Below the pieces are notes generated by a model. That model did not search any database. It saw only the letters and a program-made list of their open reading frames with translations, and was not told the DNA's origin. A program made the translations under genes and the position numbers. Positions 3,514 to 47,624 of a stretch of 64,000 nucleotides of DNA are shown piece after piece. Where the stretch lies: assembly GCA_000004985.1 (NCBI GenBank), contig GG738892.1; one strand, given 5' to 3'. Within the stretch, counting starts at the first letter, position 1. Each line of letters opens with the position of its first letter. The stretch is from Naegleria gruberi. Lineage: Eukaryota.

Positions 3514-5852
3514 TTAATCATAGTCATTGAAACTTTGTTCCTCATTTTCAAAGGATCCAAGTATTTGCTCCAATTCTTCACTTGGCATGAATACTTCACT
3601 GCCATAAGTTGGTGGAATATTTGTCACGGTTGGAAGAAAGTTATGTTGTAAATGTTGTGGATTAATATCAGCAAAGGATGGTGGTAAATGAGTTTGATTG
3701 ATCATATTTACATCAAATGAATGTTGTTGGGATTGGATTGAATTATTTCTCATAGAAGATGCTTGAACACTGATAGTGTTACAAATTTGGGAAAGAAGTT
3801 CTGATACAGAGGGATCATTAAGCGTATTATTTGTTGGATTGATGGGAATAAATGCTTGTTGAGGTGATTGGAATTCTCCAGATGAGCTAGAACTAGTGTA
3901 CGGTGATGAGGTTGAGGAAGAGGATGAAGACATGATTTCTTCAAATCTTGGAGGTTGAGGATTAACATTTCCAAATGGTAAGTTAGGATTCATAGTTGGT
4001 GCTGTTTGAGTGTTAATTACAGGTTGTTGGGTAGGTGGTTGTTGTCTCTTTGCAATTTGGGATGTTAATTCCTCAATTGAATTGACAGTATTGGTTCCTT
4101 CTATTACTTCTGCTTGTTCTTTCATAATTATTCCACAAAACTTGTTAACTCTTCCATATCTTGTTCCTAGTATTTTCAAAGCTCTTAATCCTTTAGCTAC
4201 ATAATCGTAATAGTCAATACCCTCTGCTAAATTAACTCGTTTTCCAACTCTTATCATTCTAATTATTGACAAGTGAACTTTACAAGCGCCAGCCACAACA
4301 CTGGTTAAGGCTACAGGTACAACTGGGAATGTTTCTTTTGTAGTTTCATCAATAATCTTGTTGGCAGATACTTCAATTAAGTGACCTCGAATACCAGCCT
4401 CAATTAAAATTCTCATTCGAGAACCATGATAGACCATACTGTCAGTAATGGTGGCTAATTCTCGTTGTTCAGGAGTAAACGAAAATGTTTGATTGTGAAG
4501 AGTAAGGAATGAACAAACGCTATCTAGTAATCCAAGATAACTAATGACGTTTTGAGGAGTAATTTTCTGTTTAGCAATTGTCATATATTCCTCTGGCATT
4601 TGTCTACCAGTGGCATATCTATAAATTAATGTCAGTCTTGTACACATGAAATGTTCATCTTCAGTTGAGTGATAATTTTGTGAATCTATACTCAATCGTG
4701 TAACTGTTTTAACCTTGTCCAAATTTTTCATTTCAGGTGTCAAATTATCATGATCCAACAAGTTCTTTTCTTTGAAATAGTAATCTACATTATTTAAATA
4801 GAATCTTGCTCTACTATCATCTCCTTCTCCTGCAAAAAAGTAACTAATGTAATTAAATGTACTAACTACAAAGAAATCGTCACACTTATCGAATAGGGAT
4901 GATAAAAGTTGTTTTGAAATATTGATATCTTCCATAGCTCGTTCTCGTCTTCCTAATCGTTGTTCAACAAGGGCTTGAATAGAAAATACTAAAGCCATCA
5001 ATTCTGTATTATTATATGGATTTTCTGTAAAGAGAAAATCTTCCAAGACTTTTCTTCCAACAACAGGATGCCCTCCTGAAACAATATTGAAATAAGAATC
5101 AATAGTATTAATTTTCAAAAATTGTTTGTAGAGAGAGTAATTCTCGCTTAATAAATTATTCAATGTTGATGGAATGAGCATTGTTAATTTCTTTCTTAAT
5201 TCAAAATCTTGTTCTGGATTTGTAGGAACAGGATATGGATCTTTTCTTTGAGAGTATTTCAATCTACTTCCTTGTATTTCATTCTCCGAACTTATTAATA
5301 AATTACTTGCTTGATTTTGAGAAATTGCCAATTGATTTGTTGATGATCCTGGTGCTCCTGTATCCTTCTTCTTTTTGTTTTTACCTCCTCTAATTCTTCC
5401 TTTCTTTTTTGGTTCTCTATATATACATTCTCTTCCTCTTAGTTGGCATTCACTGCAAATTGGTAATTTCTATTTAAATAATAATAATTAATATTAATTT
5501 CAAAAGTATGCAATTTATACTTACCTTGTCACACTACACAATGATAAATTAATAATCATACAAGTTAAATTCCTTACCTTTTTATGCTAAACAATAAATA
5601 AATTAATAATCAATTAATTGATAAAATCCTTACCATACTTCTACAAGTTGCACAAGCAATAGGATGATATGAAAAATTTGGATCTCTTGGTGTATCATCA
5701 TTATCAAATTCGTCATCATCATCAAAATCATTAGCTTGTTTTCCAACAAGAGATTCTGAGCCGAAAGTTGACATCGGATTGAATTCTCCAGATGAACTCA
5801 TGATGTTGTTATTATTATTGTTGTTATTGAGAGTTTTTATATAAAATTTCAA
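3514..5852 (-). CDS. Zn(II)2Cys6 binuclear-cluster transcription factor with a C-terminal fungal-specific TF-like region. Five exons including two 9-nt microexons (5586..5578 and 5533..5525). The alternative start is the ATG at 5801.
   Basis: The spliced DNA-binding domain reads ...YHPIACATCRSM|HKK|CDK|KLPICSECQLRGRECIY, i.e. C-x2-C-x6-C-x6-C-x2-C-x6-C. All three introns (47, 44 and 55 nt) begin GTAAG and end AG. The large 3' exon (5469..3514) encodes a 605-aa region typical of fungal Zn-cluster factors and ends in a Ser/Gln/Asn-rich tail. Confidence 0.75.
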
Positions 5853-7320: not shown

Positions 7321-7382
7321 GGAAACATAGAGTAAAAAGCCAAAAATGGAGTCATAGGGAATCGAACCCTAGACCTTCTGCA

Positions 7383-7413
<31 letters not shown>

Positions 7414-7458
7414 AACCCCTACTATTTTGTTTTTTAAATATACTACTCCATTTGTTAG
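7321..7458. repeat. Copy 1 of a ~140-bp duplicated unit that carries the tRNA-Ala gene and its flanks.
   Basis: Near-identical to 9464..9598, including about 25 bp on the 3' side of the tRNA (aaa[c/t]atagagtaaa[a/t]agccaaaaa) and about 40 bp on the 5' side (tact[a/g]ttttgtt[t/a]tttaaa[a]tatactactccatttgtta). Confidence 0.85.
7347..7419 (-). tRNA. tRNA-Ala, anticodon UGC.
   Basis: The reverse complement reads GGGGTTATAGCTCAGTTGGTAGAGCGTCTGCTTTGCATGCAGAAGGTCTAGGGTTCGATTCCCTATGACTCCA. It has a cloverleaf with a G3:U70 wobble pair in the acceptor stem (the alanine identity element), anticodon loop CTTTGCATG and T-loop GGTTCGATTCC. It is followed immediately by a TTTTT Pol III terminator. Confidence 0.92.
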
Positions 7459-9463: not shown

Positions 9464-9523
9464 GGAAATAGAGTAAATAGCCAAAAATGGAGTCATAGGG
9501 AATCGAACCCTAGACCTTCTGCA

Positions 9524-9554
<31 letters not shown>

Positions 9555-9598
9555 AACCCCTACTGTTTTGTTATTTAAAATATACTACTCCATTTGTT
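9464..9598. repeat. Copy 2 of the ~140-bp duplicated tRNA-Ala unit.
   Basis: See copy 1. It is in direct orientation, 2.1 kb downstream. Confidence 0.85.
9488..9560 (-). tRNA. tRNA-Ala, anticodon UGC. Second copy, with identical mature sequence.
   Basis: The same 73-nt sequence as 7347..7419, followed by the TTTTT terminator. Confidence 0.92.
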
Positions 9599-9867: not shown

Positions 9868-11337
9868 ATGAAATCTTTCAAAGGCTACGAGAGAGTTTGG
9901 TATCCTCCGATGAATGAAGAAAGTTCTCTGAATTATTCTTCTTCAAATCAACATGAAAAATTCCCATTTTCTTTAATATCCTATAATATTCTTGCTCAGG
10001 CACTTTGTAATAGACAGGGATCACAGAAATACTTGACCAAGTCACAAGCAAGGTGGAATATTAGAAGAAATAATTTATTGAATGAAATTTCGCATTATAA
10101 TTCCGATTTGATTTCATTACAGGAATGTGATTTTTATGATAGTTTTTGGAAATCAGAATTGGAAAGATTGGGATATGAAACATTGTATAGTCAACAATTT
10201 AATTGTGAAAAGAATTATCAACCAATGCCATATGGATTATTGACAGCTTTCAAAAAGGACAAATTTAAATTATTGGAATTTGTTGTTTTGGATTATCAGA
10301 AGGAAGCTTTAAAAGATGTCAATATTACTGATATTGAAATTTACGAAGCCAAGCTGAGTGGAAATATTGCTCTCATTAGTGTACTATCACCGATTGACCA
10401 TCCTGAGAAGGTTCTTATCCTTTCTAATACTCATCTCTATTGGAGACCAGCATGCAATTCAGTTCGTGTCAGACAAGCACTCATTCTCATGCAAACAGTT
10501 CAGAAACTGAAAGAAACCTATGATAGCCAATCGTCGTACGAATCGGTTGAGTATGTCTGTACCGGGGACTATAACACTTCTCCGAATGATCCACCCTATA
10601 TTCTCCTAACAACAAGGAACCCCTCAAATAATGAACCTTTCAAGGGCGATTACAATGCTGTAAAATTGTGGGAGGTTATCAATAATGGAACAGATGACGA
10701 ATTTATTAAGGAATTTCCTCTTGTGTTTGTTGAGGAAATCAAGTTGGTTTTGGAATCCAAGTTACAAATGGAGTCGTCATTACAACTAACCTCAAATAGT
10801 ATAACTGTGGCTGATCCATTAAACGGCCAAGATTGCACGTCAATAGACACTGTATCTCGAGAATCAACAGAGGAATGCAACCAGGGTATTAAGGATACTG
10901 TTGTTTCCCAAGAGGAGGTTGAGAGAATTTTCAAAGAGCAATACCAGCAACGAATCAGAAACATTAAGCAGTGTATTCATCAATTTTCTTTATCTCTCCC
11001 TATTATTTCCCTTTATACATTCTATAATAGTCACTGTGACAAGGAAGAAGATATTAAGGCCATGAAGGTACACGAAAGGTGGAGCAATAATGACTTACCC
11101 TATACCACATATACGCCTCATTATATTTCCACTCTGGATTATGTATTTGTTAGTGAAAATTCCACACTTTCATTAACACATCTCTTATCTGTTCCGACAC
11201 CTCAACAAATTCAAGAGGAACACTCACAACTAACTCAATTGTTGGAAGAGAAGGATTCTGGAGATAGTCTCGTTTGGATTCCAAACGATATTCACTCATC
11301 TGATCACTTTAGTTTGGGAGTAAGGATGTCCCAATAA
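9868..11337 (+). CDS. Endonuclease/exonuclease/phosphatase (EEP) family protein, CCR4/nocturnin/angel-like putative deadenylase.
   Basis: FSLISYNILAQAL...SLQECDFYDSFW...SNTHLYWRP...IPNDIHSSDHFSL are the conserved EEP catalytic blocks in the right order. It is a single 489-aa ORF. Confidence 0.65.
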   Translation: MKSFKGYERVWYPPMNEESSLNYSSSNQHEKFPFSLISYNILAQALCNRQGSQKYLTKSQARWNIRRNNLLNEISHYNSDLISLQECDFYDSFWKSELERLGYETLYSQQFNCEKNYQPMPYGLLTAFKKDKFKLLEFVVLDYQKEALKDVNITDIEIYEAKLSGNIALISVLSPIDHPEKVLILSNTHLYWRPACNSVRVRQALILMQTVQKLKETYDSQSSYESVEYVCTGDYNTSPNDPPYILLTTRNPSNNEPFKGDYNAVKLWEVINNGTDDEFIKEFPLVFVEEIKLVLESKLQMESSLQLTSNSITVADPLNGQDCTSIDTVSRESTEECNQGIKDTVVSQEEVERIFKEQYQQRIRNIKQCIHQFSLSLPIISLYTFYNSHCDKEEDIKAMKVHERWSNNDLPYTTYTPHYISTLDYVFVSENSTLSLTHLLSVPTPQQIQEEHSQLTQLLEEKDSGDSLVWIPNDIHSSDHFSLGVRMSQ

Positions 11338-11926
11338 GCGACATTAACCTTACCATGTTTTATCTCTCCATAGTAATAGGGTACTTTATTTGTACCAAAG
11401 GATTTGTTTACTGTATTTTTGCTTTTATTTGGACAAGTGTTTCTTCTTTATGTGTGCAGCATTCTTGCCTGCTAAGTGTGTTAAAACTGTACAGTGTTTG
11501 CGCAACCAACACCAACACCACAACAACCTCTTTTTCAATTTGCAAATGGCGTGTTTTTCAAAGTAAAACAAAACATCAATACAATAACCAATTATTTTCT
11601 CTTCTGAATCAAGACAATTTTTATACTCATAGTAATAATCCAATATCAAGACATTTTGTTGTGTGGAAACATTCAACAAGATCAAGGCAATATTATTACT
11701 ACCTCCACTACTACTATAAATTTTGTACACTATATTTATTTATTAACCAAATCCCTTAGAATCCCTTAAATTTTGTTCCCGCCCGAACTTAATAATCCCT
11801 CATATCAACCTCCCCTTTGTACTTTTAACATCAAACAACTTAATTATTTAAACTATTTTAAATAACAGACATTGTACTTCTACTACCAATATTTAACATT
11901 AAACAACCCTCAATACAACCATCAAA

Positions 11927-18142: not shown

Positions 18143-21100
18143 ATGAGCAACGATCAACAAGCAAACGTCGATATAACCATCACGTAAGTCATCATCACAC
18201 AATCATCTCCTTCTCATCATTAAATTATTGCTGTTAATCAATATACACAACAACAAAATAGCGAACTTTTAATTGAATATGAAGTCCTTGTTCATTCACA
18301 TTCTCTTGTAGCAATAGAGTCAAGTGTTAGAGGTGAAATTGTAGAAAAATATCGACATGTAAGTTATTGTTGTGTGTTTATTTGAATTATAATAGTAAAT
18401 TGTAAAATTGTGTGATTTGGCATTGTGTTGTATTGCTATACACACAAACGATTAGAATCAAGAATATAAAACCAAGAATATTAATTTCCAATATAACTTG
18501 GAAAGTTTGAAATGCATTCTGTCTCGCCTTTCAAAGAATAAGGCCAATCTGTTGAAAATTTTGGACATGATGGCTGATATCATCAATTCGTATACATTAC
18601 TTAAGGATTTGAACAGTAAGAAGAAGATTGTAATACCAGAAAAGAAGGAAGTAGATTATATTGATAACAATGTAATGAGTCATATGAGATTATGTTTACA
18701 ATCATATAAGGAAAATTTGTAAGTAACTTGGTCAAATCATTGAGCTAACAACTCTCATGTTAATTGGTTGGTGGACCAAACTCTCTATGATAACACTACT
18801 ACACACAGAGATAAACAAAATAACCAAGGAAAATTGATAATTCCAGACAAAATTCACAAGATTTGTTACGATAGAATTTATAATGATATTTTTATTGAAG
18901 AGTGTGGAAAACTTCTCGGAGAAATTTCAAGCTTCCAAATGGACAGTGTTTTACAAATTGTCTTGACAAGTTTTGAAAAAGTTGGTAAATCACAAAATGA
19001 GGCCAAAAACTTTCAACCACTTCAAAAAATTACAAAACATTTAGATTTCTGTTTTGCTGATGAAGAACGTACTCATGGAACTCTTGCTTACCTTGATGCT
19101 ATTCGTACTAAACTTCCAAATATGAAAAAGGGTAAGAAGGATCTCATGCCATTCATTTGTGAAACTTTAATTCATATTTTTGAGGAAATTCTCACTGGAC
19201 AATACATGTTTGATGAAATTCAATTACTTGAGAATAGTCAACATTGGGAAAAGCGTAAGAAGGAATTTAAATCACTTAATAATGAATTGAGTAATAGATT
19301 TTGGGGATGTTTCCAAGAAATCTATGATAATTTGTTGAAGATGGCTTCAAAGAAAGAAGCTTCATCATTTGATCTTGTAAATTGTATGGCAATGATGACT
19401 TGTCGTGCAAAGGAGGACATTTACTTCCAAAATGTTCCAGAACTCATCAAATTGTACACTGCCGGTCTCAAAGATAAGAAGGAAAAATTCGATTTCTTCA
19501 AATCAATCAAATCATTTGTAACATATGTACCTAATGAATATGTTACAAAAGATCTGGAAAAGTTCAGTAACTTTATTAAATCTGTTTCAGATCAAATTTT
19601 CAATAAGAAGGTGGTACTCAATGAATACAGACAAGATGCTGAAACATTCCTTGTTGAATATGCCAAGAAACAACTTCATAGAACATGGCCTAAACTCATG
19701 GAAGAAATTTTGAAACCAGAAAACCAAAAAGTTTACACTAACGAACACAGAGCTGTTGCATTGTCATGTATTGCTAGAGTTGCAAGACTATTCCCTGATG
19801 AAATTGCAAAGCAAAACTACTTGTTGGGAGTTGTTTGTACAAATATCATTTTAGATGAAAAGATGAGAACTGATGTTACTCTATTGAGAAATGTTCTTAA
19901 ATGTTTCCCTCGGGTCAGACATACATCTGAAGAAAAGATGAATGAAATTAGAAATATCATTGGTACTCATTGCTTATTACATCCTGATAGAACTGTTTCT
20001 AGAAATGCTGCTGAGGCTCTTGTTTCCTCTGTTGAAATGGAACCAGGTAAAATCCTTGATGTTGTCGAAAAATTCAGAGATGTTTTGATTAAGGTTAATG
20101 AAATTACTCCAGAAAATGCTTACAAATTGTTGAAGGATTTATTCCTTGTTTTGGAAACATTTATTCATAAGGTTCAAGAATCGGAAAAACTTATTATTGG
20201 ATTAGACATTCAAGGATACAACTCTCTTAGAAAGAAGGTTGAAGGAATGTTACTTTTGTATATTATTCATACTGCCCCTACTGTCAGAAATCAAGCTGTC
20301 AAGACTCTTAAACAATTGTCTAGACCAGAACTTAAAGCAATCACTAAGGAAATTTCATCAAATTGTACTTATCTGATTGATGACGGCATGCTTACTTCCC
20401 CAAAGAATGACAGTTCTGAATGGTTACCTTGCGTAGAAGAAATGTGCAAGAATCACGTTGATGATGCCATCACTAAGGCATGGGAAGAATTGATAAAGCG
20501 TTGGAGTACTGGTGTTTCCAGACTCGATAAGATTGATCTCCTCTCGAATCATTTGAGATTCCTCTGTGCTGCAGCTAGACCAACACTCGCCTCAAAGGCA
20601 GAACCATTCTTCAATGAATTACTCCAATTGTTAACTAAGAATTGCCCTCATAACGAAATTAAGACAGCAGTTTTGGGAGCTTTAGAATTGGTCCATCCAA
20701 CAAGCATGTACATGATCCTCTCACAAATAAGATCCATTGATGTAGCCAGAACCTACATCAAGAAGGAGCATAGAATTGAAAGCTCCGATCCTGCTTACGA
20801 ACAACACATTATTTCCTTGCTAAAGAGATTAATTACCAAGTCCATCTCAAATGTTTCATCCATTTCACCAACTGATTTCCTCTTTGTCAAGCAAGGAATT
20901 GCTGTTAGAGATTTCTTTGATGAACTCATTTCTAATTGGACAACCAAGGATAGAATTGATGTTAGAGACATTACAGGTTCTTTCCTCAATAATATTGACA
21001 CTTGGAAAGACGCTGCTGAAATTATTGCAACTTACCTCAAGCATTTGAATACCATCAGTAAGCAAACTGCTCTCGAAAAGGGAACAGATATTTCTGATCA

Positions 21101-24100
21101 AGCTGTTACATACAGTAATATGTTCAAAAAGCACACTGTCAATCAATCTTTGGTGTATCTCTTCAAATTCTTGCATTATGACCACATTGGACTTTATTGC
21201 CAAGAAGCTGCTAATGGTATTCAACACATTTGTTCATTTGGAATGATTGAAGATGAAAAGTTTATCAATGACATTTTGAGATATTGTGAACAAGTTATTG
21301 TTCGTAAGAAAGATGAAGTTGACGTTATTCCAGTCATGTCAGAATTTTTGAGAAATAATCCTCAAACTCTCAGAACCTTCATTATCAACTCATACTATGA
21401 ATCCTTCAATAGATATATCAAGGAAGAACTCGATACTCAAGACGAATCTGAAGATAAATCAAAGAAATCCAGTAAAGGAACCAAGAAGGAAGTTGAAGCT
21501 ATGCTTGAATTAAAGGAAGAAAAGAAAGAAGAAAGAAAGAAATTCACTGAAAGAATTCCAAATATTTGCAGAGCATATCTCTCTGCCATTGTAAAGGTTA
21601 TGGAAGATCACCTTGATCATTGGATTCAAGAACAATACACCACTTTGGGAGGCATGTTCTATATTGCACTTGTCCACTCATGCACCAGAGGTAACATTTC
21701 ACTCAGAGATAAGGCTCATGAATTGATTAATATTGTAATCAAATCAGATACCTCTGAAGGAAATATCAATTATGGAACAACCTATCACTGTACAAGTGTT
21801 GGTGATGAATGTGTCTTTAAAAAGACTATTTACAACTTTTCAGAATATGTTTCAAAGACTGCTCCTTTGATTACTGCTGATTTGTTTACTGAAGCTGATA
21901 AGACTGTTGATTTGTTGGATGGTGTTAATAAGGAAAATACTTTGAGAATTCTCACACCATGGTCTTACAATTTCGGTCTCTATGTCAAGACATGTTTGGA
22001 TTCTGCAAATACTTCTGATGCTGCCTACAAGATGAAAGATTTCACTTCTCAAAGACTTTTGAAGATTATCTTTACTATTACTGAAAAACTCCACGGTGAT
22101 GAAGATTCACAAACCGACGATTATCCAATGACTAATAATTTGAATAAGCACTATTTGGAAAGAATTTGGTACAACCTTATCAAATCATCAGAAGTTTGTA
22201 AATGGGTTATTCCAGAAGTTGTCAAGTTTATTGTTGAAAATTATGATTATTCATTCTCAAATAATACTCAACCTGTCAACACAACCCATACCTTGTTGAG
22301 AGCTGTCTTTGTTTATATTTGTAGAGATGAAAAGAGCTTGCCGCTCATCCTTGAAAACCTTGTCTATTATTTGAGAGATTACAAGGAAAAGGTACCTGAA
22401 ACTAAGAAGGAAGTTGCCAAATATCTCGTCGAAAGAGGTTTACAGGAACCTGTTGATGCTGAATTCACTAGTCTAGAATTCAGTGCTCTCCAACTCTTGG
22501 TTGATATTACCTATGAACATGATGTTGCACTCATTCCTCATTTACCAAAACTCTTCATGAATACCATTGTTCTCTTCAACTCTTGTCAAAATACTAGAAC
22601 ATTTATTGAACCTAAACTCATCTTGGAAAATATCCTTCAATCACTTGCATTGAGAATGAGAGATTTGAATACTTCTACCATTCACTATGTTGAAAAACTT
22701 ACTCAATTCCTCATTGAAAATTTGAGAAAGTCCTCTCAACAAAAGCTTACACGTGTTCGTTCATTCATTGTTCAATGGACAGAATATGTATCAAAGAAGC
22801 ACAGACCAGATTTGGCTGAAGCTATTTCTGAAATGGCTCTCAATTGGGCTTTACAAACAAAGGACAATAAGATTTCACTCGAATCTTACTATGTTTTTGA
22901 AGCTTTGAACAAGAACTTCTCATGTGATGTCATTGAAAAGTTAGTGATTGGTTTCTTTGATGCTGTCAGAGTTAGAGATGATGCCAAGATTTCTATCATT
23001 ATGGATATTTTCTTCAATATTCCATCTGATAAGTTGGCTCCTCCTCGTGTATCTAAATTATTGTTCCAAGTCGTCTTTTGGCTCTTCTTCTCCTGGAATA
23101 AGACTCACTTTGCTCGTGGTTTGAAATACATGCTCAAGTTGCAAGGACTCACCCAATATGATAATATTGATGAATCCGTACTCAATTCATCCATGTACAA
23201 TGTATGGAAGGGTTACACAGGTGAAGAAACTGTTGATGTTAGCGTCTCTAGAGTTATTTTCAAGGGAATATTCGATACTGAAACATTTGCTGAAACCTTT
23301 GATCTCTTGAATAATTTGGTTGTCAGATTTGAATCATACATGACCAAACAAAGCAATATGATGATTGCAACTATTTTGGTTGTTCAAGGTATTCTATACC
23401 TTTCTGGTGACTTCTCAAAGAAGGCTCAATTGCAAAAGTTGTTGGATAGAAACGAAGGTTTGGTGGATTTCAAGAATGCTTTCAATACTCTTGAACAATC
23501 CTTCACTCAAGTCAAGGCCAATTTGGTAACAAATGAGGAAGTTATCTCAGAATTGACAGAATATAACAAGTGTATGACTCAGTTTACCACTGACTTTGCA
23601 TCTGCCTATCAAAAGATATTCTCAAATAAGAGTGGCAGCTTTATTAATTGGGTATTGGTTTCCCTCACCAAAAATTCTAACATCAAGTGGTCTCTTGCCT
23701 CTGTTCTTCTTACTAGCAAATTGCTCCCAGTCATTTTCCAACCTGGTTTGTGGTCTATTGAAGAAATTAGCAGTGTCTCTTGTATTGCTAAGGAATGCAT
23801 GTCAGATGTTAAGCTTGTTTCATATTTGAGAAATCCACTCCTCCACAATTCTGCCAAGGATATTACTGAATTTATTGCCTTCCATGCTCATGAAAAGCAA
23901 AAGAAATACACCAAGAAGGAGGTTGAAACTGTTTTCCCATACTTGGAACCAACTCTTGGATTCTTGAAAAGTGTTCGTTCAGAGAAACCATCCAATAATG
24001 AATCATTCGTTGGAACAAACACTGTTGAAAAGGATATTACTCGTAGTGAAATTTTGTGTCGTATGTGGTATCAAACATTTAGTCTCCAAATTGATCCTGC

Positions 24101-24389
24101 ATCCAACAATGAAGAAGCATCACTCCTCACTTCAATTCTCGAATTCAAATCTGAAACTCATGCCACTGAATCAAATATTTCTCCTGTCATTGCAAACTAT
24201 GCCAAAGTCATTTCACAAAGAAAGACCAAACCACTCTCTGATATTCCAGAATCGGATGCTCCACCAACTGTAACCCAGGTAAATGATATTAATATTGATG
24301 ATGTTGAAGATGAAGTAGAAGAAGCAATTATTATTCCACCACCTCCAGAATCTGATAGTGAGGATGAAGAAAGTGAGAAAACTCAATAA
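18143..24389 (+). CDS. Very large (>1,900 aa) alpha-helical protein, HEAT/ARM-like, with an acidic C-terminal tail. I could not assign a family. It has several short 5' exons followed by a 5.6-kb exon.
   Basis: There is a long 1873-aa ORF at 18768..24389. It is preceded by short exons with GTAAGT donors at 18143..18184, ~18272..18359 and 18498..18719. The protein ends ..IDDVEDEVEEAIIIPPPPESDSEDEESEKTQ. Confidence 0.5.
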
Positions 24390-29889: not shown

Positions 29890-32284
29890 ATGCTGTCATT
29901 GAAAACAAGCCAATCCGAAACTTTTTCTCCAACGTTGCCTCCTTCGGCTTCAGACTCCTCCTCCTTATCATCCATGTTGCCAGATATTGAAAACTGGAGT
30001 AATATGGATGTGAGTATGATTCTTGTCAATTCGGGAGAAGTTTGGGTGGTTAGGGATCAAAGTGAATGGACAAAGTTGATCAATGGAATACACGGTGAAG
30101 AAAAAAAGTGTTTGGTTGTATTGGATTCGAATGGAAAGTCTGTAAAGAAGGTGAGTGACAATTGATCAATATATTTAAAGGGTTTAATGTGTTTAGTTTG
30201 ATCAATCAACAATTAATTATTTGATTTGTAAAGGAAAGTTAGAAGATAAAGAAAATTCATCAAGTGAAGTAATGAGGGGATTGGAATTATTTAATGAATA
30301 TGTACAGTACTCTATCAGGAAATTTGAGAACTCGAGAATTAACTTGAACTCCAGATTGGAAACCCTTCAGAAAATGAATTTCAAAGAGAAATATCATAAC
30401 TTTAAATTGGAACAATCATTGAATGTTGATTTCTCAAAAATTGTTAATGAAATGCAGGAAAAGCTAAGGCTTGTAAGAGAAAAAACCAGACTGATTGTTG
30501 TGGAAATGAATTCTTTTCTAGCTCCAAACTTGAGAAAGTCTATTGATGGTTTATCAATTCAAGAGAGGATTGAGTACTTTGATAATCTTATCAATAATTT
30601 CACACAAATTAAGAAACTGTTCAAAAATCCATTTGACGACATGACAAAAAGATTGTTTGATGAATTATTGCTATTTGATGGGTTTGAACCTTATTATCGT
30701 CTTACATTACAAGAATGTTCTAGAATTAATAATGTAAAGAGAGAGCTTGAGAATTATTTACAACAAGCACGAGAAGAGGAACAGGAAAATCAAGCACAAT
30801 TCAAAGAATTCATAGGTATAGAGAAATTCAAGTATGTGCTAAAGATTGCTCCAAGTATTGTGGACTACATCTCAAACGAGACAAACTCCTCCATGGAGGA
30901 TGTAGTAGAAATGGCTTCTTCCATCCAATCTGTTACAAACATTCAAGGAGAAAACACACTTTATTCTTTAGAAGAAGAGGAAATGGATGAAGATCAACAA
31001 TTAAAAGACCAAGAAATACAAGATTTGAGATCACAAATTGAAGGTTTAAACAATCGAATTGCCGAATTGAACAACCAGGTTAATGGGTGTGATGTAAAGA
31101 ATAACTCATTAATTATTGGGAATGTTGAGTTTACTAAAATGTTTGAAAAAGAGATGCAAGACATGACAGACAAATTTAACAAAGAAATTGAATGTTTGAA
31201 AATGGAGAAGGAAGAAATCGAGAAAAATATGAAGGAGGAGAAGGAAAATATGTTACAACAACTTGAAATTGAGAAGCAACAACGCCAAGATTATGAAAAA
31301 CAGATCAAGGCATTACGTGATGATGTCGAATATTTGAAAAACGAGAAAAAGAATGAAAATAATAAGGCCAACAAAGAGATAACTGGATTGAATGAGCAAT
31401 TGAAAACTGAGAAAGAACAAATTTCCAAGTTAATGAAGCAACTATCCTTCCTTAAAGAAGAATCTGAAACAGAAGAGGCTAAATATAATGCAAATATTAA
31501 GGAACAAAAGGAAAAGTATCAAACATTGTTGACAGATCTAAACGAAATTCAGCAGAAGTTGGAGTCCAGCAAAGGAGAATGTACTGCTGTTAAATCTCAG
31601 TTGGAAGAAAATGCTGGAAAGTATTGTGAAAATATATCAAACCTTGAAGGTTTAATTGTAATGTTGAAGGATGAAATAAGGAATGATACACAAAACTATA
31701 ACGAATACCAGCAAAAATATTTTGACTCTAAAATTCTCTTGGAATCATTAGAAGTAAAACTATCTGAAAGGGTTGAAGAATTGAAAAAAGTGTATGATAT
31801 TAACAGTAATTTAGAATACCAATTAGGAGAAAGTAACCACGAAAAGGAGAAATTAATGGAAGATTTCAAAATATTACAGGATCAATTAGATATGAAACTC
31901 AGCATGTGTGTGGCAGAAAATTTAAATCTGGAAGAAAAGCTTAAAAATTTGGAAAATGAAAAGGAGCAATTATTGATAAGCTCATTTGTGGATCCACCAA
32001 ATCAAACAGATGCTTCTAATGACAAACAAAAAAGACTTTTAGAGAGTTTGGCGAATCAACTTCAATTAATATCTTTTTCCTTGGCAAGTGTTATTCAAGA
32101 TAGAGCAAGATGGATTGATAATGTTCTTGAAATACTAACAAATCTTATTACTGGTGAAATTGACAATCTCGATGAAGACCAACTCAATGACATTGTGAGA
32201 GGACTATGTAATAGATGGCACTTTGCCAGAGATAAGAAACTCATTGATGAGAATGGTTCTGATGCTAGAGGAATAGGGCATTGA
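29890..32284 (+). CDS. Long coiled-coil protein of about 770 aa. Exon 1 is 29890..30150 and exon 2 is 30234..32284.
   Basis: There is a gtgagt donor after ..SVKK. The 687-aa second exon is dominated by heptad-like E/K/L/Q repeats such as LKMEKEEIEKNMKEEKENMLQQLEIEKQQRQDYEKQIKALRDD. Confidence 0.5.
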
Positions 32285-34223: not shown

Positions 34224-34586
34224 ATGAGCGAAGATACCAAAGACATTAAAGCTGAAGGAAAGGGTGAACAACACATTAACATCAAGGTTGTGAGTCAAGT
34301 AAGTAGTAATAGCAATGCGCAATCATCAGGAGGCTAACTATTTTTTATTATTTTTTTAATATATTTAAAATAGGATGGTGTTGAAGTTTTCTTCAAGATT
34401 AAGAGATCAACCCCTTTGAAGAAGTTGATGGATGCCTATTGCAAGAGACAAGGTCTTTCTCCAGCTTCCGTTAGATTTGTTTTTGACGGAAACAGAGTCA
34501 CTGGTACCGAAACTGCTGATCAACTTGAAATGGATGACCAAGACGTTATTGATGTTTTGGTTGAACAAACTGGTGGTTCATTCTAA
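34224..34586 (+). CDS. SMT3: SUMO (Smt3). Two exons: 34224..34298 and 34371..34586.
   Basis: The product reads [25 protein letters not shown]|[70 protein letters not shown]. It is collinear with human SUMO1 as I recall it and carries a di-Gly processing site followed by a short tail. The 72-nt intron runs gtaagt...aatag. Confidence 0.88.
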
Positions 34587-34970: not shown

Positions 34971-35864
34971 CTAATGGATACTATAATTATCCAAATAGCT
35001 GTACCTACAAGCGAAAGGAACGACAACAAAGATCTGATTTTTCTCATCATATGCAATCGTTCCATTCCTTGATTCGTATACTTTTGGAAAGGTCAATCCA
35101 AAAAGCTCAATATCAAGTTCTGAAATCTCCTGTTCGAACCAAGTCTGAAAAGGAGTCTCCAAACAAAGAAACCTACCCACCTCTCCTATACTATCATCCT
35201 CATGTTTTTCGAAAGTTGTACATCGCTCATACATCAAAGATTGAGATTTAAATTCGGCTTTGAAGGATTTAAACTTGTCCAAGTAATGCAAGAGAAATTC
35301 GCCATCGTAGAGAGAAGTTGAGTAGACATTATTTCGAACGGTGACCCTTTTTGGCTCCTTATCACTTGTTTTCCATTTTGCTTTCGAATAGTCTATTAAA
35401 TAGTGAAATATGTCATGGTTGAATCTATTCGAAATTCTAAATAAATTGAGCAATAGTAAACAGGGCGACCATTTAACAATTTCCAAACATTGTCCTGTTT
35501 CTATTTCCAATCGCAGATTCAATCTTTCCAATAAAACAGACGAAATTTCAACTCTTGAAAATGTGTTATTGTAAAATTCTTCCAAAACTTTCCTAAATTT
35601 CACACATTTTCCCAATCCCCATTCGAATCCATCAAAATATTCCCTTTCCGATATAATTCCATCACAAAACTTGGTTGCCAACCTGAAAACAGCATTTCCA
35701 AAAACACATCTATCTGTATTCACTTGTTGTAATTGTTTATGGAAAAATCTATTCGATAGTTCCAACAAGTAAATTGATGGAATTTTCAAATAGGATAGAA
35801 TATGATTGCATAAATCTTCATTATCGGTAAAGAGTGCGTAGAGAACATGTTGTTCTTCTGACAT
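34971..35864 (-). CDS. Hypothetical protein with a possible N-terminal F-box-like motif.
   Basis: DLCNHILSYLKIPSIYLLELSNRFFHKQL. The protein is 297 aa. Confidence 0.35.
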   Translation of the reverse strand: MSEEQHVLYALFTDNEDLCNHILSYLKIPSIYLLELSNRFFHKQLQQVNTDRCVFGNAVFRLATKFCDGIISEREYFDGFEWGLGKCVKFRKVLEEFYNNTFSRVEISSVLLERLNLRLEIETGQCLEIVKWSPCLLLLNLFRISNRFNHDIFHYLIDYSKAKWKTSDKEPKRVTVRNNVYSTSLYDGEFLLHYLDKFKSFKAEFKSQSLMYERCTTFEKHEDDSIGEVGRFLCLETPFQTWFEQEISELDIELFGLTFPKVYESRNGTIAYDEKNQIFVVVPFACRYSYLDNYSIH

Positions 35865-35988: not shown

Positions 35989-36594
35989 TCAGACTAATCT
36001 TTCGAATAGATTATTTTGCATCATGTTTAGCAAGTGCATCAGAAGAATTGCATTCTCAATGTTTGGATTTTCTGGAGAATCAAACAATGATTCTGATGTG
36101 TTTTGTGGTTGGAATGTTGCTGGGATTGAATTTTGTTTACAATGGAATGCTAATTCATCAAGAATCGAATGATTGTTCGATTTCTTCTGGTTTAATTCAC
36201 AATTTCCTTCTGCACAACCAGTACTGGAAACTGTAGAACTGTATGTCTCAGATGTAGTGGTGGAGAAGGAGCTTGTCGTTCTCACTAATTGTAATCTTTC
36301 AGATACAACTATATTACTTTCGTCCTCTTTCTTTTGTACTTTAAATGTTGTCTATGTATCTTTACTATTGTTTTCCATTACAAAGTAGTTCTTGAGAAGA
36401 TTATTATCGTGAAGTGTCTTTCTCAATTTATAATTCTCTGGTTTCTGATAATCTTTCTTGTGGATTCGTCTTGTTGTTCGAACTGTTTCGTCAATAATTG
36501 AAAACTTTCTTCTTGGATTGCTTCCTCTTGAGTTGATCATATTGAGTTTCGAATAAGGATAATTTTTTGAATAATTAATTCTATTCTGTCGCAA
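35989..36594 (-). CDS. Paralogue B of a two-gene tandem family that shares a basic SIIDET...LLKNYF motif. Multi-exon.
   Basis: The ORF 36352..36594 reads ..PRRKFSIIDETVRTTRRIHKKDYQKPENYKLRKTLHDNNLLKNYFVMEN. It probably continues into 35989..36285 (..TSSFSTTTSETYSSTVSS..). Confidence 0.4.
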
Positions 36595-36818
36595 TAGTTA
36601 GTTTTGATTGATGAAAGAAAAGGCTCATTTGAGCAAAATCTGTATCAGGATTAATTAATTCCAAAAGAATCTTCATAAATGGGCTTCACCTTGTCGTGAT
36701 CTTCCTTTTTAAGATTGAGCCTTTCAATCTATGTCTATCCAAAAACATACATTGGACACGGACCGTTCAAACTCATTGGAAAAATCCAAACATTTTCAAA
36801 AACAAACTTTAACTTTAT

Positions 36819-37883
36819 CTACTTTTGTTCGTTGTTTTTTGAAATTGTCGTTGGTTGATCTGAATTGTCTGTAAACTGCATCAATATTTGTAAAAGATCC
36901 AAATTTTCAGAAGTAAAAGGTGAAAGCCCGCTCAAAAAACTTGAATTATCCATCTCGTTGAGAGTTTCATTGTTGTGAATGGAATATTGAGAGTTATTGA
37001 GAGAAGGTTCTGGATTTGGATCTTCATGCGTTAGAGGAGGATAAGGCGGAATGTCGGAGGGGATTGGCTGAGTATTACTTAACGAAAAGTTATTCGAATG
37101 TTGGGTAAAATTATGCATTATTTCAGAGTTCATTAATTCTTGTAAAGTCAATGAACTGTTTTGAAAATGTGCTGAAGTAGTGTTTTGAGAAGATTGGACG
37201 GATTGAGGCAAAACTTGCTGTTGTTGGGGTGGTGTAATCGATTTTCTAGAAGAATCCTCACTACTTTCAGATAATTTCGAATAAACTTGAAAGGTTTCCT
37301 TTTTGATAAAGCTTTCAGATGATGCAGAAGTGTTGCATGATTGTTGATCATGTGATGAATCTTGAGATGTTGTTTCTGATGGAATTATTTTAAAGGTTGT
37401 CACTTCATTAGACGAAACTCTGTCCATCTCAAAGTAATTCTTTAAAAGCTGATCGTTTTGGAGTGGTTTTCTCAGTCGTGTTGATTTCTTTCTTTTCCTT
37501 TTCGAAATTTTGTCTCGAGTTCTATTAGTTTCGTCTATTATTGAAACTCTTCTGTTTGAAGAAGTTTCGGATGGTTTTACATTAGTTACATGTTGTTGAT
37601 GTGTTTCACCTGTTTGGTGTTGATTAAGATCATGTTGATTCATTGTTTTTGGCTGGTTAGTTTCGGCACTCCATTGAATAGTTTCGTATTTTTGAAATTC
37701 ATTTCTTCTTTCCTGCTGTTGCAAGCTACTTTGAGGGTCTGTTGTTTGAACAGACATTACACGATTGTACTCTTCCTGACTAGTATTCGAATCTACAGAG
37801 AAATCAGACGAATGAACATCCTTCTCCTCTCTATCCATTCTTTTTTGAAGCAAGCACACAAGATTCATGGAGAGAGAACACAA
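36819..37883 (-). CDS. Paralogue A of the SIIDET...LLKNYF family.
   Basis: ..NRRVSIIDETNRTRDKISKRKRKKSTRLRKPLQNDQLLKNYFEMDR.. The basic region and LLKNYF motif are conserved with the neighbouring gene. The C-terminus is Q/S/N-rich. Confidence 0.5.
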   Translation of the reverse strand: MCSLSMNLVCLLQKRMDREEKDVHSSDFSVDSNTSQEEYNRVMSVQTTDPQSSLQQQERRNEFQKYETIQWSAETNQPKTMNQHDLNQHQTGETHQQHVTNVKPSETSSNRRVSIIDETNRTRDKISKRKRKKSTRLRKPLQNDQLLKNYFEMDRVSSNEVTTFKIIPSETTSQDSSHDQQSCNTSASSESFIKKETFQVYSKLSESSEDSSRKSITPPQQQQVLPQSVQSSQNTTSAHFQNSSLTLQELMNSEIMHNFTQHSNNFSLSNTQPIPSDIPPYPPLTHEDPNPEPSLNNSQYSIHNNETLNEMDNSSFLSGLSPFTSENLDLLQILMQFTDNSDQPTTISKNNEQK

Positions 37884-38764: not shown

Positions 38765-40195
38765 TTAAAATTTAACTTTATGGAAATTCATGAAAAACGA
38801 GTATTGGTTGAACATTTCTTTGCCAGCAATATTATGAATCAAACATTTACCAATTATTTGATTTAGTGCAACATAGCCTGTTGTTACATGAATGTTTGAA
38901 TCAATTAATCTATATCCAATAATTGGATGAACCGAAGAGAGACACTTTTTGATGTTGGTGAAATATACTCTTTGCTCTTTAACCTCAACAAATTGACCAA
39001 CAAGTAAGGAACCATCCTTTGCCTTAAATAAAATAAATTCTTTGTTTTGTACAATTGGAATCCATTTCTTGTTTTCAGATTGATTTCTTACCCAAGGATA
39101 ATTGATGTTAATTTGTTTTTGAAGTTTTTCAAAATTCGCTCCTCGTTGTTCTAAATTTTTGTGATTGGAAGAGTCATTAAATTGTTTGAAAACTTTGTGT
39201 TTCAATTCAAAAAGCAATGCCCAGAAGAACCTGGCATTTCCCCACTTCAAACAATCTTCAAAAATATGAGAATTCCAATGAAAATTAGGATTTGTAAAAT
39301 TACCATTACCATATAGGGAAATGACTTGTTTCCTGAAATTGAAATGTTTCAATTTTGCAATTTCAATATTTGAAGGTGAAACCAAATCTTGAATCAAAGA
39401 AAGTACGTATTCTACGTGATTTGACCAACATATTATATGTTTCTTCTTCAAACTGAATGAAACATCACAGTGATTCTTATTATTAATAAGAAAATCATAC
39501 ATAATTGGGCAACTAAAAACCACGAATTCCAAAAAATGATCTGCTGAACAATCATTGTAATCTTTTGCAATCATTTTCAAAGGTTTACCATGATTGTTTG
39601 TATACTTGTCCATAACAGACTGAAAATCACTTAAAATGTTGGTGTAATTGAAATATTTGAAAAATTTTTTAAGGTGTCTCCTTAAATCACCTTGAATAGA
39701 ACCATGCATTAATTCAACAGTTGAATTTTCAAAAATATCACAATCCTTAATTTGTAAAAACGGACACTTCATTTGAGTATTGTTACTTTGTCGAACTTTT
39801 TCTTTTACCTGTTTGGATTTTTTGGACTTGGAATCAATCTGCATATCTTTGATTTGAATATCAGCGACTGTAATAAACTTGTAGCCATTACATGAGGTAC
39901 CAATTGATAATTTTTGTTGCATTTCAATTGCTTCAGTAACAGTTCTTAAAGGATAGACTAAAGGTGTTGAAATGTCATTAGGACATTTACAATAATCTCC
40001 TTTTGGGCATTTACATTTAGAACATGTATAGCTTTCAAGAAATAATGATAGCCATCTTTGTACAGAATCCCAAATCCAAGGACCTATTAGAATTCGAATC
40101 TTTTCAATTGAATCAGTGTAAGAGTTATAANNNNNNNNNNNNNNNNNNNNNNNNNNNNNNNNNNNNNNNNNNNNNNNNNNATTATTATTTTCCAC
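38765..40195 (-). CDS. Intronless Cys-cluster protein of at least 476 aa. The N-terminus is interrupted by a 50-nt gap. It may be a transposase-like or mobile-element ORF.
   Basis: A continuous ORF in an otherwise intron-rich region. It carries the cluster YTCSKCKCPKGDYCKCP. Its flanks contain GC-rich degenerate repeats (38640-38700 and 40900-40990) and a tandem ~20-nt repeat (40730-40830). Confidence 0.45.
   Translation of the reverse strand: MENNNXXXXXXXXXXXXXXXXXYNSYTDSIEKIRILIGPWIWDSVQRWLSLFLESYTCSKCKCPKGDYCKCPNDISTPLVYPLRTVTEAIEMQQKLSIGTSCNGYKFITVADIQIKDMQIDSKSKKSKQVKEKVRQSNNTQMKCPFLQIKDCDIFENSTVELMHGSIQGDLRRHLKKFFKYFNYTNILSDFQSVMDKYTNNHGKPLKMIAKDYNDCSADHFLEFVVFSCPIMYDFLINNKNHCDVSFSLKKKHIICWSNHVEYVLSLIQDLVSPSNIEIAKLKHFNFRKQVISLYGNGNFTNPNFHWNSHIFEDCLKWGNARFFWALLFELKHKVFKQFNDSSNHKNLEQRGANFEKLQKQININYPWVRNQSENKKWIPIVQNKEFILFKAKDGSLLVGQFVEVKEQRVYFTNIKKCLSSVHPIIGYRLIDSNIHVTTGYVALNQIIGKCLIHNIAGKEMFNQYSFFMNFHKVKF
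40131..40180. other. Assembly gap.
   Basis: N-run. Confidence 0.99.
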
Positions 40196-47161: not shown

Positions 47162-47624
47162 NNNNNNNNNNNNNNNNNNNNNNNNNNNNNNNNNNNNNNN
47201 NNNNNNNNNNNNNNNNNNNNNNNNNNNNNNNNNNNNNNNNNNNNNNNNNNNNNNNNNNNNNNNNNNNNNNNNNNNNNNNNNNNNNNNNNNNNNNNNNNNN
47301 NNNNNNNNNNNNNNNNNNNNNNNNNNNNNNNNNNNNNNNNNNNNNNNNNNNNNNNNNNNNNNNNNNNNNNNNNNNNNNNNNNNNNNNNNNNNNNNNNNNN
47401 NNNNNNNNNNNNNNNNNNNNNNNNNNNNNNNNNNNNNNNNNNNNNNNNNNNNNNNNNNNNNNNNNNNNNNNNNNNNNNNNNNNNNNNNNNNNNNNNNNNN
47501 NNNNNNNNNNNNNNNNNNNNNNNNNNNNNNNNNNNNNNNNNNNNNNNNNNNNNNNNNNNNNNNNNNNNNNNNNNNNNNNNNNNNNNNNNNNNNNNNNNNN
47601 NNNNNNNNNNNNNNNNNNNNNNNN
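47162..47624. other. Assembly gap that truncates two genes.
   Basis: N-run. Confidence 0.99.

What the first reader, a model, noticed from the sequence alone, without database searches (positions are those of the whole stretch)
35989..37883. Tandem paralogues sharing a conserved basic motif R-R-x-S-I-I-D-E-T-x-R-T...L-R-K-x-L...L-L-K-N-Y-F-x-M of unknown family
Two adjacent minus-strand genes both contain the block [RK]RxxSIIDETxRTxxxIxKxxxxKxxxLRKxLxxxxLLKNYFxM embedded in otherwise divergent Ser/Gln/Asn-rich low-complexity sequence. The block is a basic region followed by a short conserved hydrophobic segment, which looks like a nucleic-acid- or protein-interaction module, but I cannot place it in a known domain family. 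Local duplication followed by divergence everywhere except this ~50-aa block suggests it is the functional core.
Basis: seen in the sequence. Interest (0 to 1): 0.5.

Follow-up and report, generated by a model that had tools for sequence, protein, structure and literature searches.

The report
Naegleria-specific basic-module protein family, tandem pair
Two neighbouring genes of the amoeba Naegleria gruberi really do share a strongly conserved ~60-residue basic module; it defines a small, undescribed protein family found only in Naegleria and Willaertia, its function is unknown, and one of the two copies carries a premature stop codon in this assembly.

Summary
The window is Naegleria gruberi nuclear DNA. 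Gene A (36819-37838, minus strand) is NAEGRDRAFT_71658. Gene B (35989-36540, minus strand) is unannotated. They share the block ...SIIDET.RT...LRK.L...LLKNYF.M...TTFK (shuffle z = 16).

It is not bZIP, bHLH or any Pfam or PDB family. A profile search of 1.84 billion proteins found 14 further proteins. All those that carry a name come from N. gruberi (at least 6 loci), N. lovaniensis and Willaertia magna. DET, LRK, L and NYF are invariant.

In gene A the block is under strong purifying selection (dN/dS 0.07, against 0.50 for the rest of the protein).

Gene B is interrupted by an in-frame TAG where two related contigs have Leu codons. This is a very recent nonsense allele or an assembly error.

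Tandem pairs recur in Willaertia. The function is unknown. My best guess, from inference only, is a lineage-specific nuclear regulator that resembles a transcription factor. Interest is modest.

The parts
36819..37838 (-). Gene A, CDS of NAEGRDRAFT_71658 (339 aa plus TAG stop). The ORF extends upstream to an alternative ATG at 37868 and a TTG at 37883.
   Evidence: 100% identical to XP_002673242.1 / D2VRP5.
37383..37556 (-). Gene A conserved module (aa 95-152). It contains motif 1 VSIIDET, a basic helix and linker with KRKRKK, motif 2 RLRKPLQNDQLLKNYFEMD and motif 3 VTTFKII.
   Evidence: dN/dS is 0.073 against the L001 orthologue.
37281..37313 (-). Gene A motif 4, SFIKKETFQVY. This is the third predicted strand of the family beta-meander.
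   Evidence: Full-length family alignment. By homology to strand 78-84 of the P0005 model. Coordinates.
36873..36908 (-). Gene A C-terminal acidic and hydrophobic helix, ENLDLLQILMQF.
   Evidence: The equivalent helix in the P0005 model has pLDDT of about 90. In gene A the most hydrophobic 19-residue stretch (aa 301-319) overlaps this helix.
35989..36540 (-). Gene B, an unannotated paralogue. It runs from the ATG at 36540 to the TGA at 35989-35991, in one reading frame interrupted by a single TAG.
   Evidence: Orthologues on L001 and L002 read through this position.
36334..36513 (-). Gene B conserved module, RRKFSIIDET ... LLKNYFVME ... TTFKVQ.
36352..36354 (-). In-frame TAG inside the gene B module. 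The homologous codon is TTG (Leu) on L002 and CTA (Leu) on L001.
   Evidence: DNA alignment; translations.
36283..36315 (-). Gene B motif 4, NIVVSERLQLV, downstream of the TAG.
   Evidence: Conserved on L001 (LIVSERLQF) and L002.
36004..36057 (-). Gene B C-terminal hydrophobic helix, ENAILLMHLLNMMQNNLF.

Best explanation
Genes A and B belong to an undescribed multigene family restricted to vahlkampfiid heteroloboseans (Naegleria and Willaertia). Its members are small, soluble proteins. Each has (i) a conserved basic module: a hydrophobic-x-hydrophobic-hydrophobic-DET motif that starts a basic helix, then a K/R-rich linker of variable length that often looks like a classical NLS, then RLRKxLxNxxLLxNYF leading into a small three-stranded beta-meander; (ii) a variable, mostly acidic, Ser/Thr/Asn/Gln-rich disordered spacer; and (iii) a C-terminal acidic and hydrophobic amphipathic helix. 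I think they are most likely nuclear regulators that resemble transcription factors. In this view the basic module carries nuclear import and binds nucleic acid or chromatin, or one conserved nuclear partner, and the C-terminal helix is the effector or interaction motif. The family expands by tandem duplication, and redundant copies decay. Gene B in this assembly is such a copy (or an assembly error), with a single T-to-A change making TAG. Shown: membership of the family, the conservation pattern, selection, charge, lack of a membrane segment or signal peptide, the tandem arrangement, and the stop codon. Inferred only: nuclear localisation, nucleic-acid or chromatin binding, and the effector role of the C-terminal helix.
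For: The family is real and lineage-restricted. The profile search gave 16 proteins at E < 1e-3, all matching the block. The named ones are N. gruberi 71658, 71135/76322, 71132/76320/76403, 76150 and 53199 plus a partial protein, N. lovaniensis C9374_014028, and Willaertia ABK040_006269, 006247 and 012534. D-E-T, L-R-K, L and N-Y-F are invariant in 17 modules. Purifying selection is concentrated on the block. The module has a net charge of +5 to +10, K[KR]x[KR] is present in 11/17 modules, and the rest of the protein has a net negative charge in 15/17. No membrane segment or signal peptide is present, and in most members the most hydrophobic stretch is the C-terminal helix. AlphaFold on P0005 gives helix 16-28, strands 51-56, 61-67 and 78-84 at pLDDT 70-80, and a C-terminal helix at about 90. 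Paralogue number (at least 6 loci in N. gruberi, at least 4 in Willaertia), length variation from 148 to 868 aa and Q/N/S/T-rich spacers are typical of lineage-specific transcription-factor families. That last point rests on general knowledge, not on a test here. Tandem pairs: A/B here and on L001 and L002, 71132/71135 on one scaffold, and Willaertia L004 and L003.
Against: There is no direct evidence for localisation, DNA binding or expression. No expression data could be retrieved. The first AlphaFold run, on the block alone, was of low confidence (pLDDT 62, one helix). The overall confidence of the second run is also low (63.7, pTM 0.30), and both alignments are shallow. The fold matches no known DNA-binding domain. 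A basic, disordered module could equally be a cluster of short docking motifs for a protein partner.
Confidence: 0.35

Rival explanations
1. The module is not a folded domain. It is a cluster of short linear motifs in a disordered protein that docks onto a conserved hub: PP1 through an RVxF-like [RK]xVSF motif, SUMO through a SIM-like VSIIDE beta-strand, PCNA through a PIP-like LxNYF, or APC/C through RKxL. The proteins would then be lineage-specific regulators or inhibitors of that hub.
For: The block alone is predicted to be mostly disordered. KVSF, RTVSF and RDVSF followed by IDET resemble the KNL1-type RRVSF motif, a resemblance I recall from memory. SIM-like hydrophobic-x-hydrophobic-hydrophobic-D-E is present in 12/17 modules. 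[LIM]xx[FY][FY] is present in 17/17, and RxxL in 16/17.
Against: None of these motifs is met as defined. A strict RVxF occurs in only 4/17 modules, and in neither gene A nor gene B. The PIP Q occurs in 0/17; that position is D, N, E, G or C. The D-box RxxLxxxxN occurs in 1/17. The Ser of the motif is S, A or E in the three gene B sequences. The invariant residues (DET, LRK, NYF) are not the defining positions of any of these motifs. NYF lies in a predicted beta-strand, not a 3-10 helix. At least 6 paralogues per genome is unusual for hub inhibitors.
Confidence: 0.2
2. It is a highly divergent cyclin-dependent kinase inhibitor of the p21/p27 type. The order of elements would be an N-terminal hydrophobic docking motif, a linker helix, then an aromatic beta-hairpin (NYFEF...Y.I compared with WNFDF...YEW).
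For: The only support is a similar order of elements and an aromatic hairpin, compared from memory. CDK inhibitors are known to diverge quickly.
Against: No member matches Pfam CDI. hhalign of the family profile against a p21/p27/p57 inhibitory-domain alignment gives probability 0.12%. No RxL motif is conserved (5/17 at scattered positions).
Confidence: 0.03
3. It is a divergent member of a known basic-region transcription-factor class, bZIP or bHLH.
For: There is a basic stretch followed by leucines.
Against: No Pfam bZIP or HLH match at E <= 1 for any of 17 members. No L-x6-L-x6-L pattern occurs (0/17). The segment after the basic region is predicted to be beta-strand.
Confidence: 0.02
4. 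The genes are decaying or spurious ORFs without function, and the similarity only reflects a recent duplication.
For: Gene B has an in-frame stop. The second Willaertia copy on L003 also has one. All members are annotated as hypothetical proteins.
Against: At synonymous divergence of 0.67-0.95 between species, the gene A block has dN/dS of 0.07 and gene B of 0.22. The module is conserved between the genera Naegleria and Willaertia. The 120 codons after the gene B TAG are still open. From base composition I estimate the chance of that at about 1e-4.
Confidence: 0.05

Closest known systems
Lineage-specific transcription-factor families of protists, in the general sense (for example ApiAP2 in Apicomplexa): a small basic DNA-binding module, low-complexity spacers and paralogue expansion
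   Same: A small conserved basic module with a three-stranded beta-sheet element. Highly variable, low-complexity remainder. Restriction to one clade. Several paralogues per genome, some in tandem. An acidic and hydrophobic C-terminal motif like an activation motif.
   Different: No sequence or fold similarity to AP2 or to any other DNA-binding domain. DNA binding has not been shown.
KNL1- or Repo-Man-type PP1-docking RVxF motifs (RRVSF followed by acidic residues)
   Same: Some members read [RK]xVSF-IDET, with basic residues before and acidic residues after.
   Different: Only 4/17 modules meet the RVxF definition. Genes A and B have I at the F/W position. The family's invariant residues lie elsewhere.
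PIP-box PCNA-binding peptides (Qxx[LIM]xx[FY][FY], for example the Spartan QNVLSNYF recalled from memory)
   Same: LxNYF is invariant and flanked by basic residues.
   Different: The defining Gln is absent in all 17 modules. The segment is predicted to be a beta-strand. It is embedded in a longer conserved module.
p21/p27 kinase-inhibitory domain (Pfam CDI, PF02234)
   Same: A disordered protein with a helix followed by an aromatic hairpin.
   Different: hhalign probability is 0.12% and there is no Pfam match.

Membership tests
Undescribed Naegleria/Willaertia 'DET-LRK-NYF' module family (defined here) | Invariant D-E-T, L-R-K, L and N-Y-F in conserved order and spacing, with a basic linker between them | tested here: met
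   Both window genes have all invariant residues. Family HMM scores are 87 bits (gene A) and 75 bits (gene B).
Undescribed Naegleria/Willaertia 'DET-LRK-NYF' module family (defined here) | Downstream strand motifs (LTxFKI and [VI][IV][TS]x[EH]x-hydrophobic-x-hydrophobic) and a C-terminal acidic and hydrophobic helix | tested here: met
   Gene A has VTTFKII, SFIKKETFQVY and ENLDLLQILMQF. Gene B has TTFKVQ, NIVVSERLQLV and ENAILLMHLLNMM, all after the TAG.
bZIP | Basic region directly followed by a leucine zipper (heptad leucines); Pfam bZIP_1 or bZIP_2 match | tested here: not met
   No Pfam match. L-x6-L-x6-L occurs in 0/17.
bHLH | Basic region plus helix-loop-helix; Pfam HLH match | tested here: not met
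   No Pfam match. Beta-strands are predicted after the basic region.
PP1-docking RVxF motif | [RK]-x(0,1)-[VIL]-{P}-[FW] | tested here: not met
   4/17 modules match. Genes A (RRVSI) and B (RKFSI) do not.
PIP box (PCNA-interacting peptide) | Q-x-x-[LIM]-x-x-[FY]-[FY] | tested here: not met
   Q is present in 0/17; position 1 is D, N, E, G or C. The [LIM]xx[FY][FY] part is present in 17/17.
APC/C D-box | R-x-x-L-x-x-x-x-N, or the ELM form .R..L..[LIVM]. | tested here: not met
   1/17 and 2/17 respectively, and not at the conserved RKxL.
SUMO-interacting motif | A hydrophobic core (hydrophobic-x-hydrophobic-hydrophobic) flanked by acidic residues, binding SUMO as a beta-strand | tested here: inconclusive
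   A loose pattern matches 12/17 modules, including A (VSIIDE) and B (FSIIDE). AlphaFold puts IIDET at the start of a helix. Binding cannot be tested here.
CDK inhibitor (Pfam CDI, p21/p27 inhibitory domain) | RxLFG cyclin-docking motif, linker helix, WNFDF...PLxGxYxW | tested here: not met
   No Pfam match. hhalign probability 0.12%.

The most novel reading that the evidence does not exclude
The DET-LRK-NYF module is a new nucleic-acid- or chromatin-binding domain. It would define a transcription-factor or chromatin-protein family that arose in vahlkampfiid amoeboflagellates, the clade that includes the relatives of the pathogen N. fowleri. Its C-terminal helix would act as an activation or partner-recruitment motif. 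The paralogues could control lineage-specific programmes such as the change from amoeba to flagellate, or encystment.
Probability: 0.25. Interest if true: 0.5.

Novelty: categorically new. Interest (0 to 1): 0.3.

Why it matters
About a third of Naegleria genes have no recognisable homologues. Turning a pair of 'predicted proteins' into a defined family gives annotators a model that could become a new Pfam entry or DUF. That definition comprises 10 invariant residues, a predicted architecture and a clear taxonomic range. It also gives experimentalists a short list of candidate lineage-specific regulators in a genus that contains a lethal human pathogen. 'Categorically new' here means only that no sequence or fold relative was found. 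Orphan, clade-restricted families are common in protist genomes. The finding is therefore not surprising in itself, and no function has been shown. The in-frame stop in gene B also flags either an assembly error or a segregating null allele in the reference strain.

Tried and rejected
- **Pfam:** scans of both genes, their neighbours and 17 family members found nothing.
- **PDB sequence profiles:** only chance matches with E > 1.
- **Protein database searches:**
  - The search with gene B found nothing.
  - The word-indexed search with the block profile returned only one N. gruberi partial protein.
- **AlphaFold on the block alone:** low confidence, so I did not use it for a fold search.
- **Fold searches with the P0005 model:**
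  - Foldseek gave a best E of 0.23.
  - The afdb50 library was unavailable.
- **CDK-inhibitor idea:** rejected by hhalign.
- **RVxF, PIP, D-box, Cy and KEN readings:** rejected by pattern counts.
- **C-terminal tails of A and B:** pairwise similarity is not significant, although the feature recurs across the family.
- **Collection scans:**
  - Viral contigs gave none.
  - The second metagenome attempt found no relatives.
- **Literature and supplements (locus tags and expression):**
  - Nothing was found.
  - The one N. gruberi expression table that is held is cut off before the jgi_7xxxx identifiers.
- **Other N. gruberi family loci:** they could not be fetched, because the gene products are not on record.

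Full report
**Origin of the window**

The window is eukaryotic nuclear DNA with about 33% G+C. The larger ORF of the finding is 100% identical to 'predicted protein [Naegleria gruberi]', XP_002673242.1 / NAEGRDRAFT_71658 / D2VRP5, on a 342-kb scaffold. Neighbouring genes are ordinary eukaryotic genes:
- a V-ATPase subunit a, an amine oxidase and an alpha/beta hydrolase;
- a SUMO-like exon ending in QTGG at 34416-34586.

**Check of the observation**

- **Gene A** runs on the minus strand from the ATG at 37838 to the TAG at 36819-36821 (339 aa). The ORF lister's start at 37883 is a TTG.
- **Gene B** starts at the ATG at 36540. After 62 codons there is an in-frame TAG (36352-36354). The same frame then stays open for 120 more codons, to the TGA at 35989-35991.
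- **Significance.**
  - BLASTP of A against B gives E = 7e-8.
  - tblastn of block against block gives E = 7e-12 at 48% identity.
  - A Smith-Waterman score against 5000 shuffles of the same residues gives z = 16.
  - The similarity is therefore not compositional.
- **Copy number.** No third copy lies in the window, either by tblastn or by a family HMM on all six frames.

**Gene B and its stop codon**

Gene B is not in the protein databases. Two related contigs carry the same A-then-B tandem arrangement:
- L001 comes from Logan run SRR21279712. Its gene A orthologue P0002 is 51% identical, with synonymous divergence of about 0.74.
- L002 comes from ENA ERZ929261. Its gene A is over 99% identical.

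In both contigs gene B reads straight through the position of the window's TAG: TTG (Leu) on L002 and CTA (Leu) on L001. The window therefore differs by a single T-to-A change. The 120 downstream codons are still open, which I estimate from base composition has a chance of roughly 1e-4. They still encode family motifs, so the stop is either very recent or an assembly error. Over the first 91 codons gene B has dN/dS of 0.22 against L001, so it has been a functional gene.

**A family, not a pair**

A profile search of 1.84 billion representative proteins returned 16 proteins at E < 1e-3. All of them match the block. The named ones are:

| Species | Members |
|---|---|
| N. gruberi | NAEGRDRAFT_71658, 71135/76322, 71132/76320/76403, 76150, 53199, and a partial protein |
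| N. lovaniensis | C9374_014028 (868 aa) |
| Willaertia magna | ABK040_006269, 006247, 012534 |

The remainder are unnamed metagenome proteins. Nothing outside Naegleria and Willaertia was detected. Scans of viral and JGI metagenome contigs gave nothing.

In 17 aligned modules D-E-T, L-R-K, L and N-Y-F are invariant. The consensus is [VFM]-S-[FI]-[IV]-D-E-T-x-[RK]-[TV]-x-x-K, then a basic linker of variable length, then R-L-R-K-x-L-Q-N-x-x-L-L-K-N-Y-F-[EV]-[FWM], then 8-12 residues, then L-T-x-[FY]-K-[IV].

- a further strand-like motif, SFIKKETFQVY in A and NIVVSERLQLV in B;
- a C-terminal acidic and hydrophobic helix, ENLDLLQILMQF in A and ENAILLMHLLNMM in B.

**Selection and physical character**

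- Between N. gruberi and the L001 species the gene A block has dN/dS of 0.073, against 0.50 for the rest, at similar dS.
- The module always has a net positive charge (+5 to +10). K[KR]x[KR] is present in 11/17 modules, for example KRKRKK in gene A.
- The remainder of the protein has a net negative charge in 15/17 and contains 26-45% Ser, Thr, Asn and Gln.
- There is no hydrophobic N-terminus and no segment of transmembrane strength. The highest 19-residue Kyte-Doolittle mean is 1.25. In most members the most hydrophobic stretch is the C-terminal helix.

**Structure**

- **Block alone.** AlphaFold2 on the gene A block (81 aa, 17 sequences) gave pLDDT 62 and only one helix, ETNRTRDKISKR.
- **Whole short paralogue.** On P0005 (148 aa) it gave:
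  - a helix at 16-28;
  - three strands at 51-56 (NYFVFD), 61-67 (QLTTFRI) and 78-84 (VVTQHVR), with pLDDT 70-80;
  - a disordered spacer;
  - a confident C-terminal helix with pLDDT of about 90.
  - Overall pLDDT was 63.7 and pTM 0.30.
- **What this means for the block.** The 'short hydrophobic segment' LLKNYFxM is therefore probably the entry into a small beta-meander. This rests on shallow alignments and should be treated as moderate evidence.

**Comparison with known families**

- Pfam gives nothing for either gene or for any of 17 members.
- PDB sequence profiles give nothing.
There are no heptad leucines (0/17), and strands follow the basic region.
- I tested several short-motif readings that the sequence suggests:
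  - RVxF PP1 docking matches 4/17 modules, and neither A nor B;
  - the PIP box has its Gln in 0/17, though LxxYF is present in 17/17;
  - the D-box matches 1/17;
  - a SIM-like pattern matches 12/17, which is inconclusive.
- A resemblance in element order to the p21/p27 kinase-inhibitory domain was rejected by hhalign, with probability 0.12%.

**Tandem arrangement and turnover**

- The A/B pair is conserved in three Naegleria-type contigs. The duplication is therefore older than those lineages.
- In a neighbour-joining tree of modules, which is unbootstrapped and has low resolution, B groups with 71135/71132 rather than with A.
- 71132 and 71135 share one scaffold.
- In Willaertia, L004 holds an intact tandem pair (10001-10606 and 11182-11775). 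L003 lies on the same contig and has the same flanking gene order (Kelch/BTB, the pair, TauD, GST, asparaginase, PDEase). Its pair is decayed: the first copy has lost the C-terminal helix, and the second has an in-frame TGA inside the module.
- The family therefore grows by tandem and segmental duplication and loses copies.

**Interpretation**

The following are shown here:
- a real, selectively constrained and taxonomically restricted protein family with a basic N-terminal module;
- a disordered acidic spacer and a C-terminal amphipathic helix;
- soluble character;
- the tandem organisation;
- a nonsense codon in gene B of this assembly.

The function is inferred only. The combination of features is the usual signature of lineage-specific nuclear regulators or transcription factors. 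Those features are:
- a basic, NLS-like module;
- a clade-specific paralogue expansion;
- variable Q/N/S/T-rich spacers;
- an acidic and hydrophobic C-terminal motif.

I put that at about 0.35. The main rival, at about 0.2, is a disordered docking module for a protein hub. No expression or localisation data could be retrieved.

**Verdict**

The family is new in the sense that no sequence or fold relative exists in the libraries searched. Orphan clade-specific families are common in protists, and no function is demonstrated. Interest is 0.3.

Noticed in passing
window 36352-36354 (minus strand): An in-frame TAG in gene B, where related contigs have TTG or CTA (Leu). The downstream 120 codons are intact. 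This is either a segregating or recent null allele of strain NEG-M, or an error in the reference assembly.
   Followed up: yes
L003 3738-4229 and L004 10001-11775 (Willaertia magna JBEGDK010000073.1): One contig carries two copies of a segment with the same gene order (roughly 10 kb or more): Kelch/BTB, a pair of family genes, TauD, GST_C, asparaginase, PDEase, CoA transferase. The pair is intact in L004. In L003 it is decayed, with a truncated first copy and an in-frame TGA at 3864-3866 in the second, which the annotators modelled as an intron.
   Followed up: partly
window 34416-34586 (+): An ORF fragment encoding a SUMO/Smt3-like C-terminus (...[12 protein letters not shown]), about 1.4 kb downstream of gene B. 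It probably belongs to an intron-containing SUMO gene. I found no evidence of a link to the SIM-like VSIIDE motif.
   Followed up: no
window 7347-7419 and 9488-9560 (-): Two tRNA-Ala(TGC) genes about 2.1 kb apart on the same strand.
   Followed up: no
window 577-1343, 40131-40180, 47162-47624: Assembly gaps (runs of N of 767, 50 and 463 bases). The 50-base gap lies inside the 476-aa ORF immediately upstream of gene A (38765-40195). The first 2 kb of the window has only about 20% G+C, in part because of the 767-base run of N.
   Followed up: no
window 34971-35864 (-) and 38765-40195 (-): The two genes flanking the pair (297 aa and 476 aa) have no Pfam match either. Several other large ORFs in the window also lack one, for example 18768-24389 (1873 aa), 30221-32284 and 3514-5331. 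This shows how much of this genome is orphan.
   Followed up: partly
window 30001-32000: Strong strand asymmetry (GC skew 0.28, AT skew 0.22) coincides with the 687-aa ORF at 30221-32284, which has no Pfam match. The coding strand is purine-rich.
   Followed up: no
L002 against window, gene B compared with gene A: The near-identical strain or haplotype on L002 differs from the window much more in gene B than in gene A. In gene B dS is about 0.07, with a 12-nt indel and Ser to Ala in the SIIDET motif. In gene A dS is about 0.005. This suggests uneven allelic divergence across 1.5 kb.
   Followed up: partly
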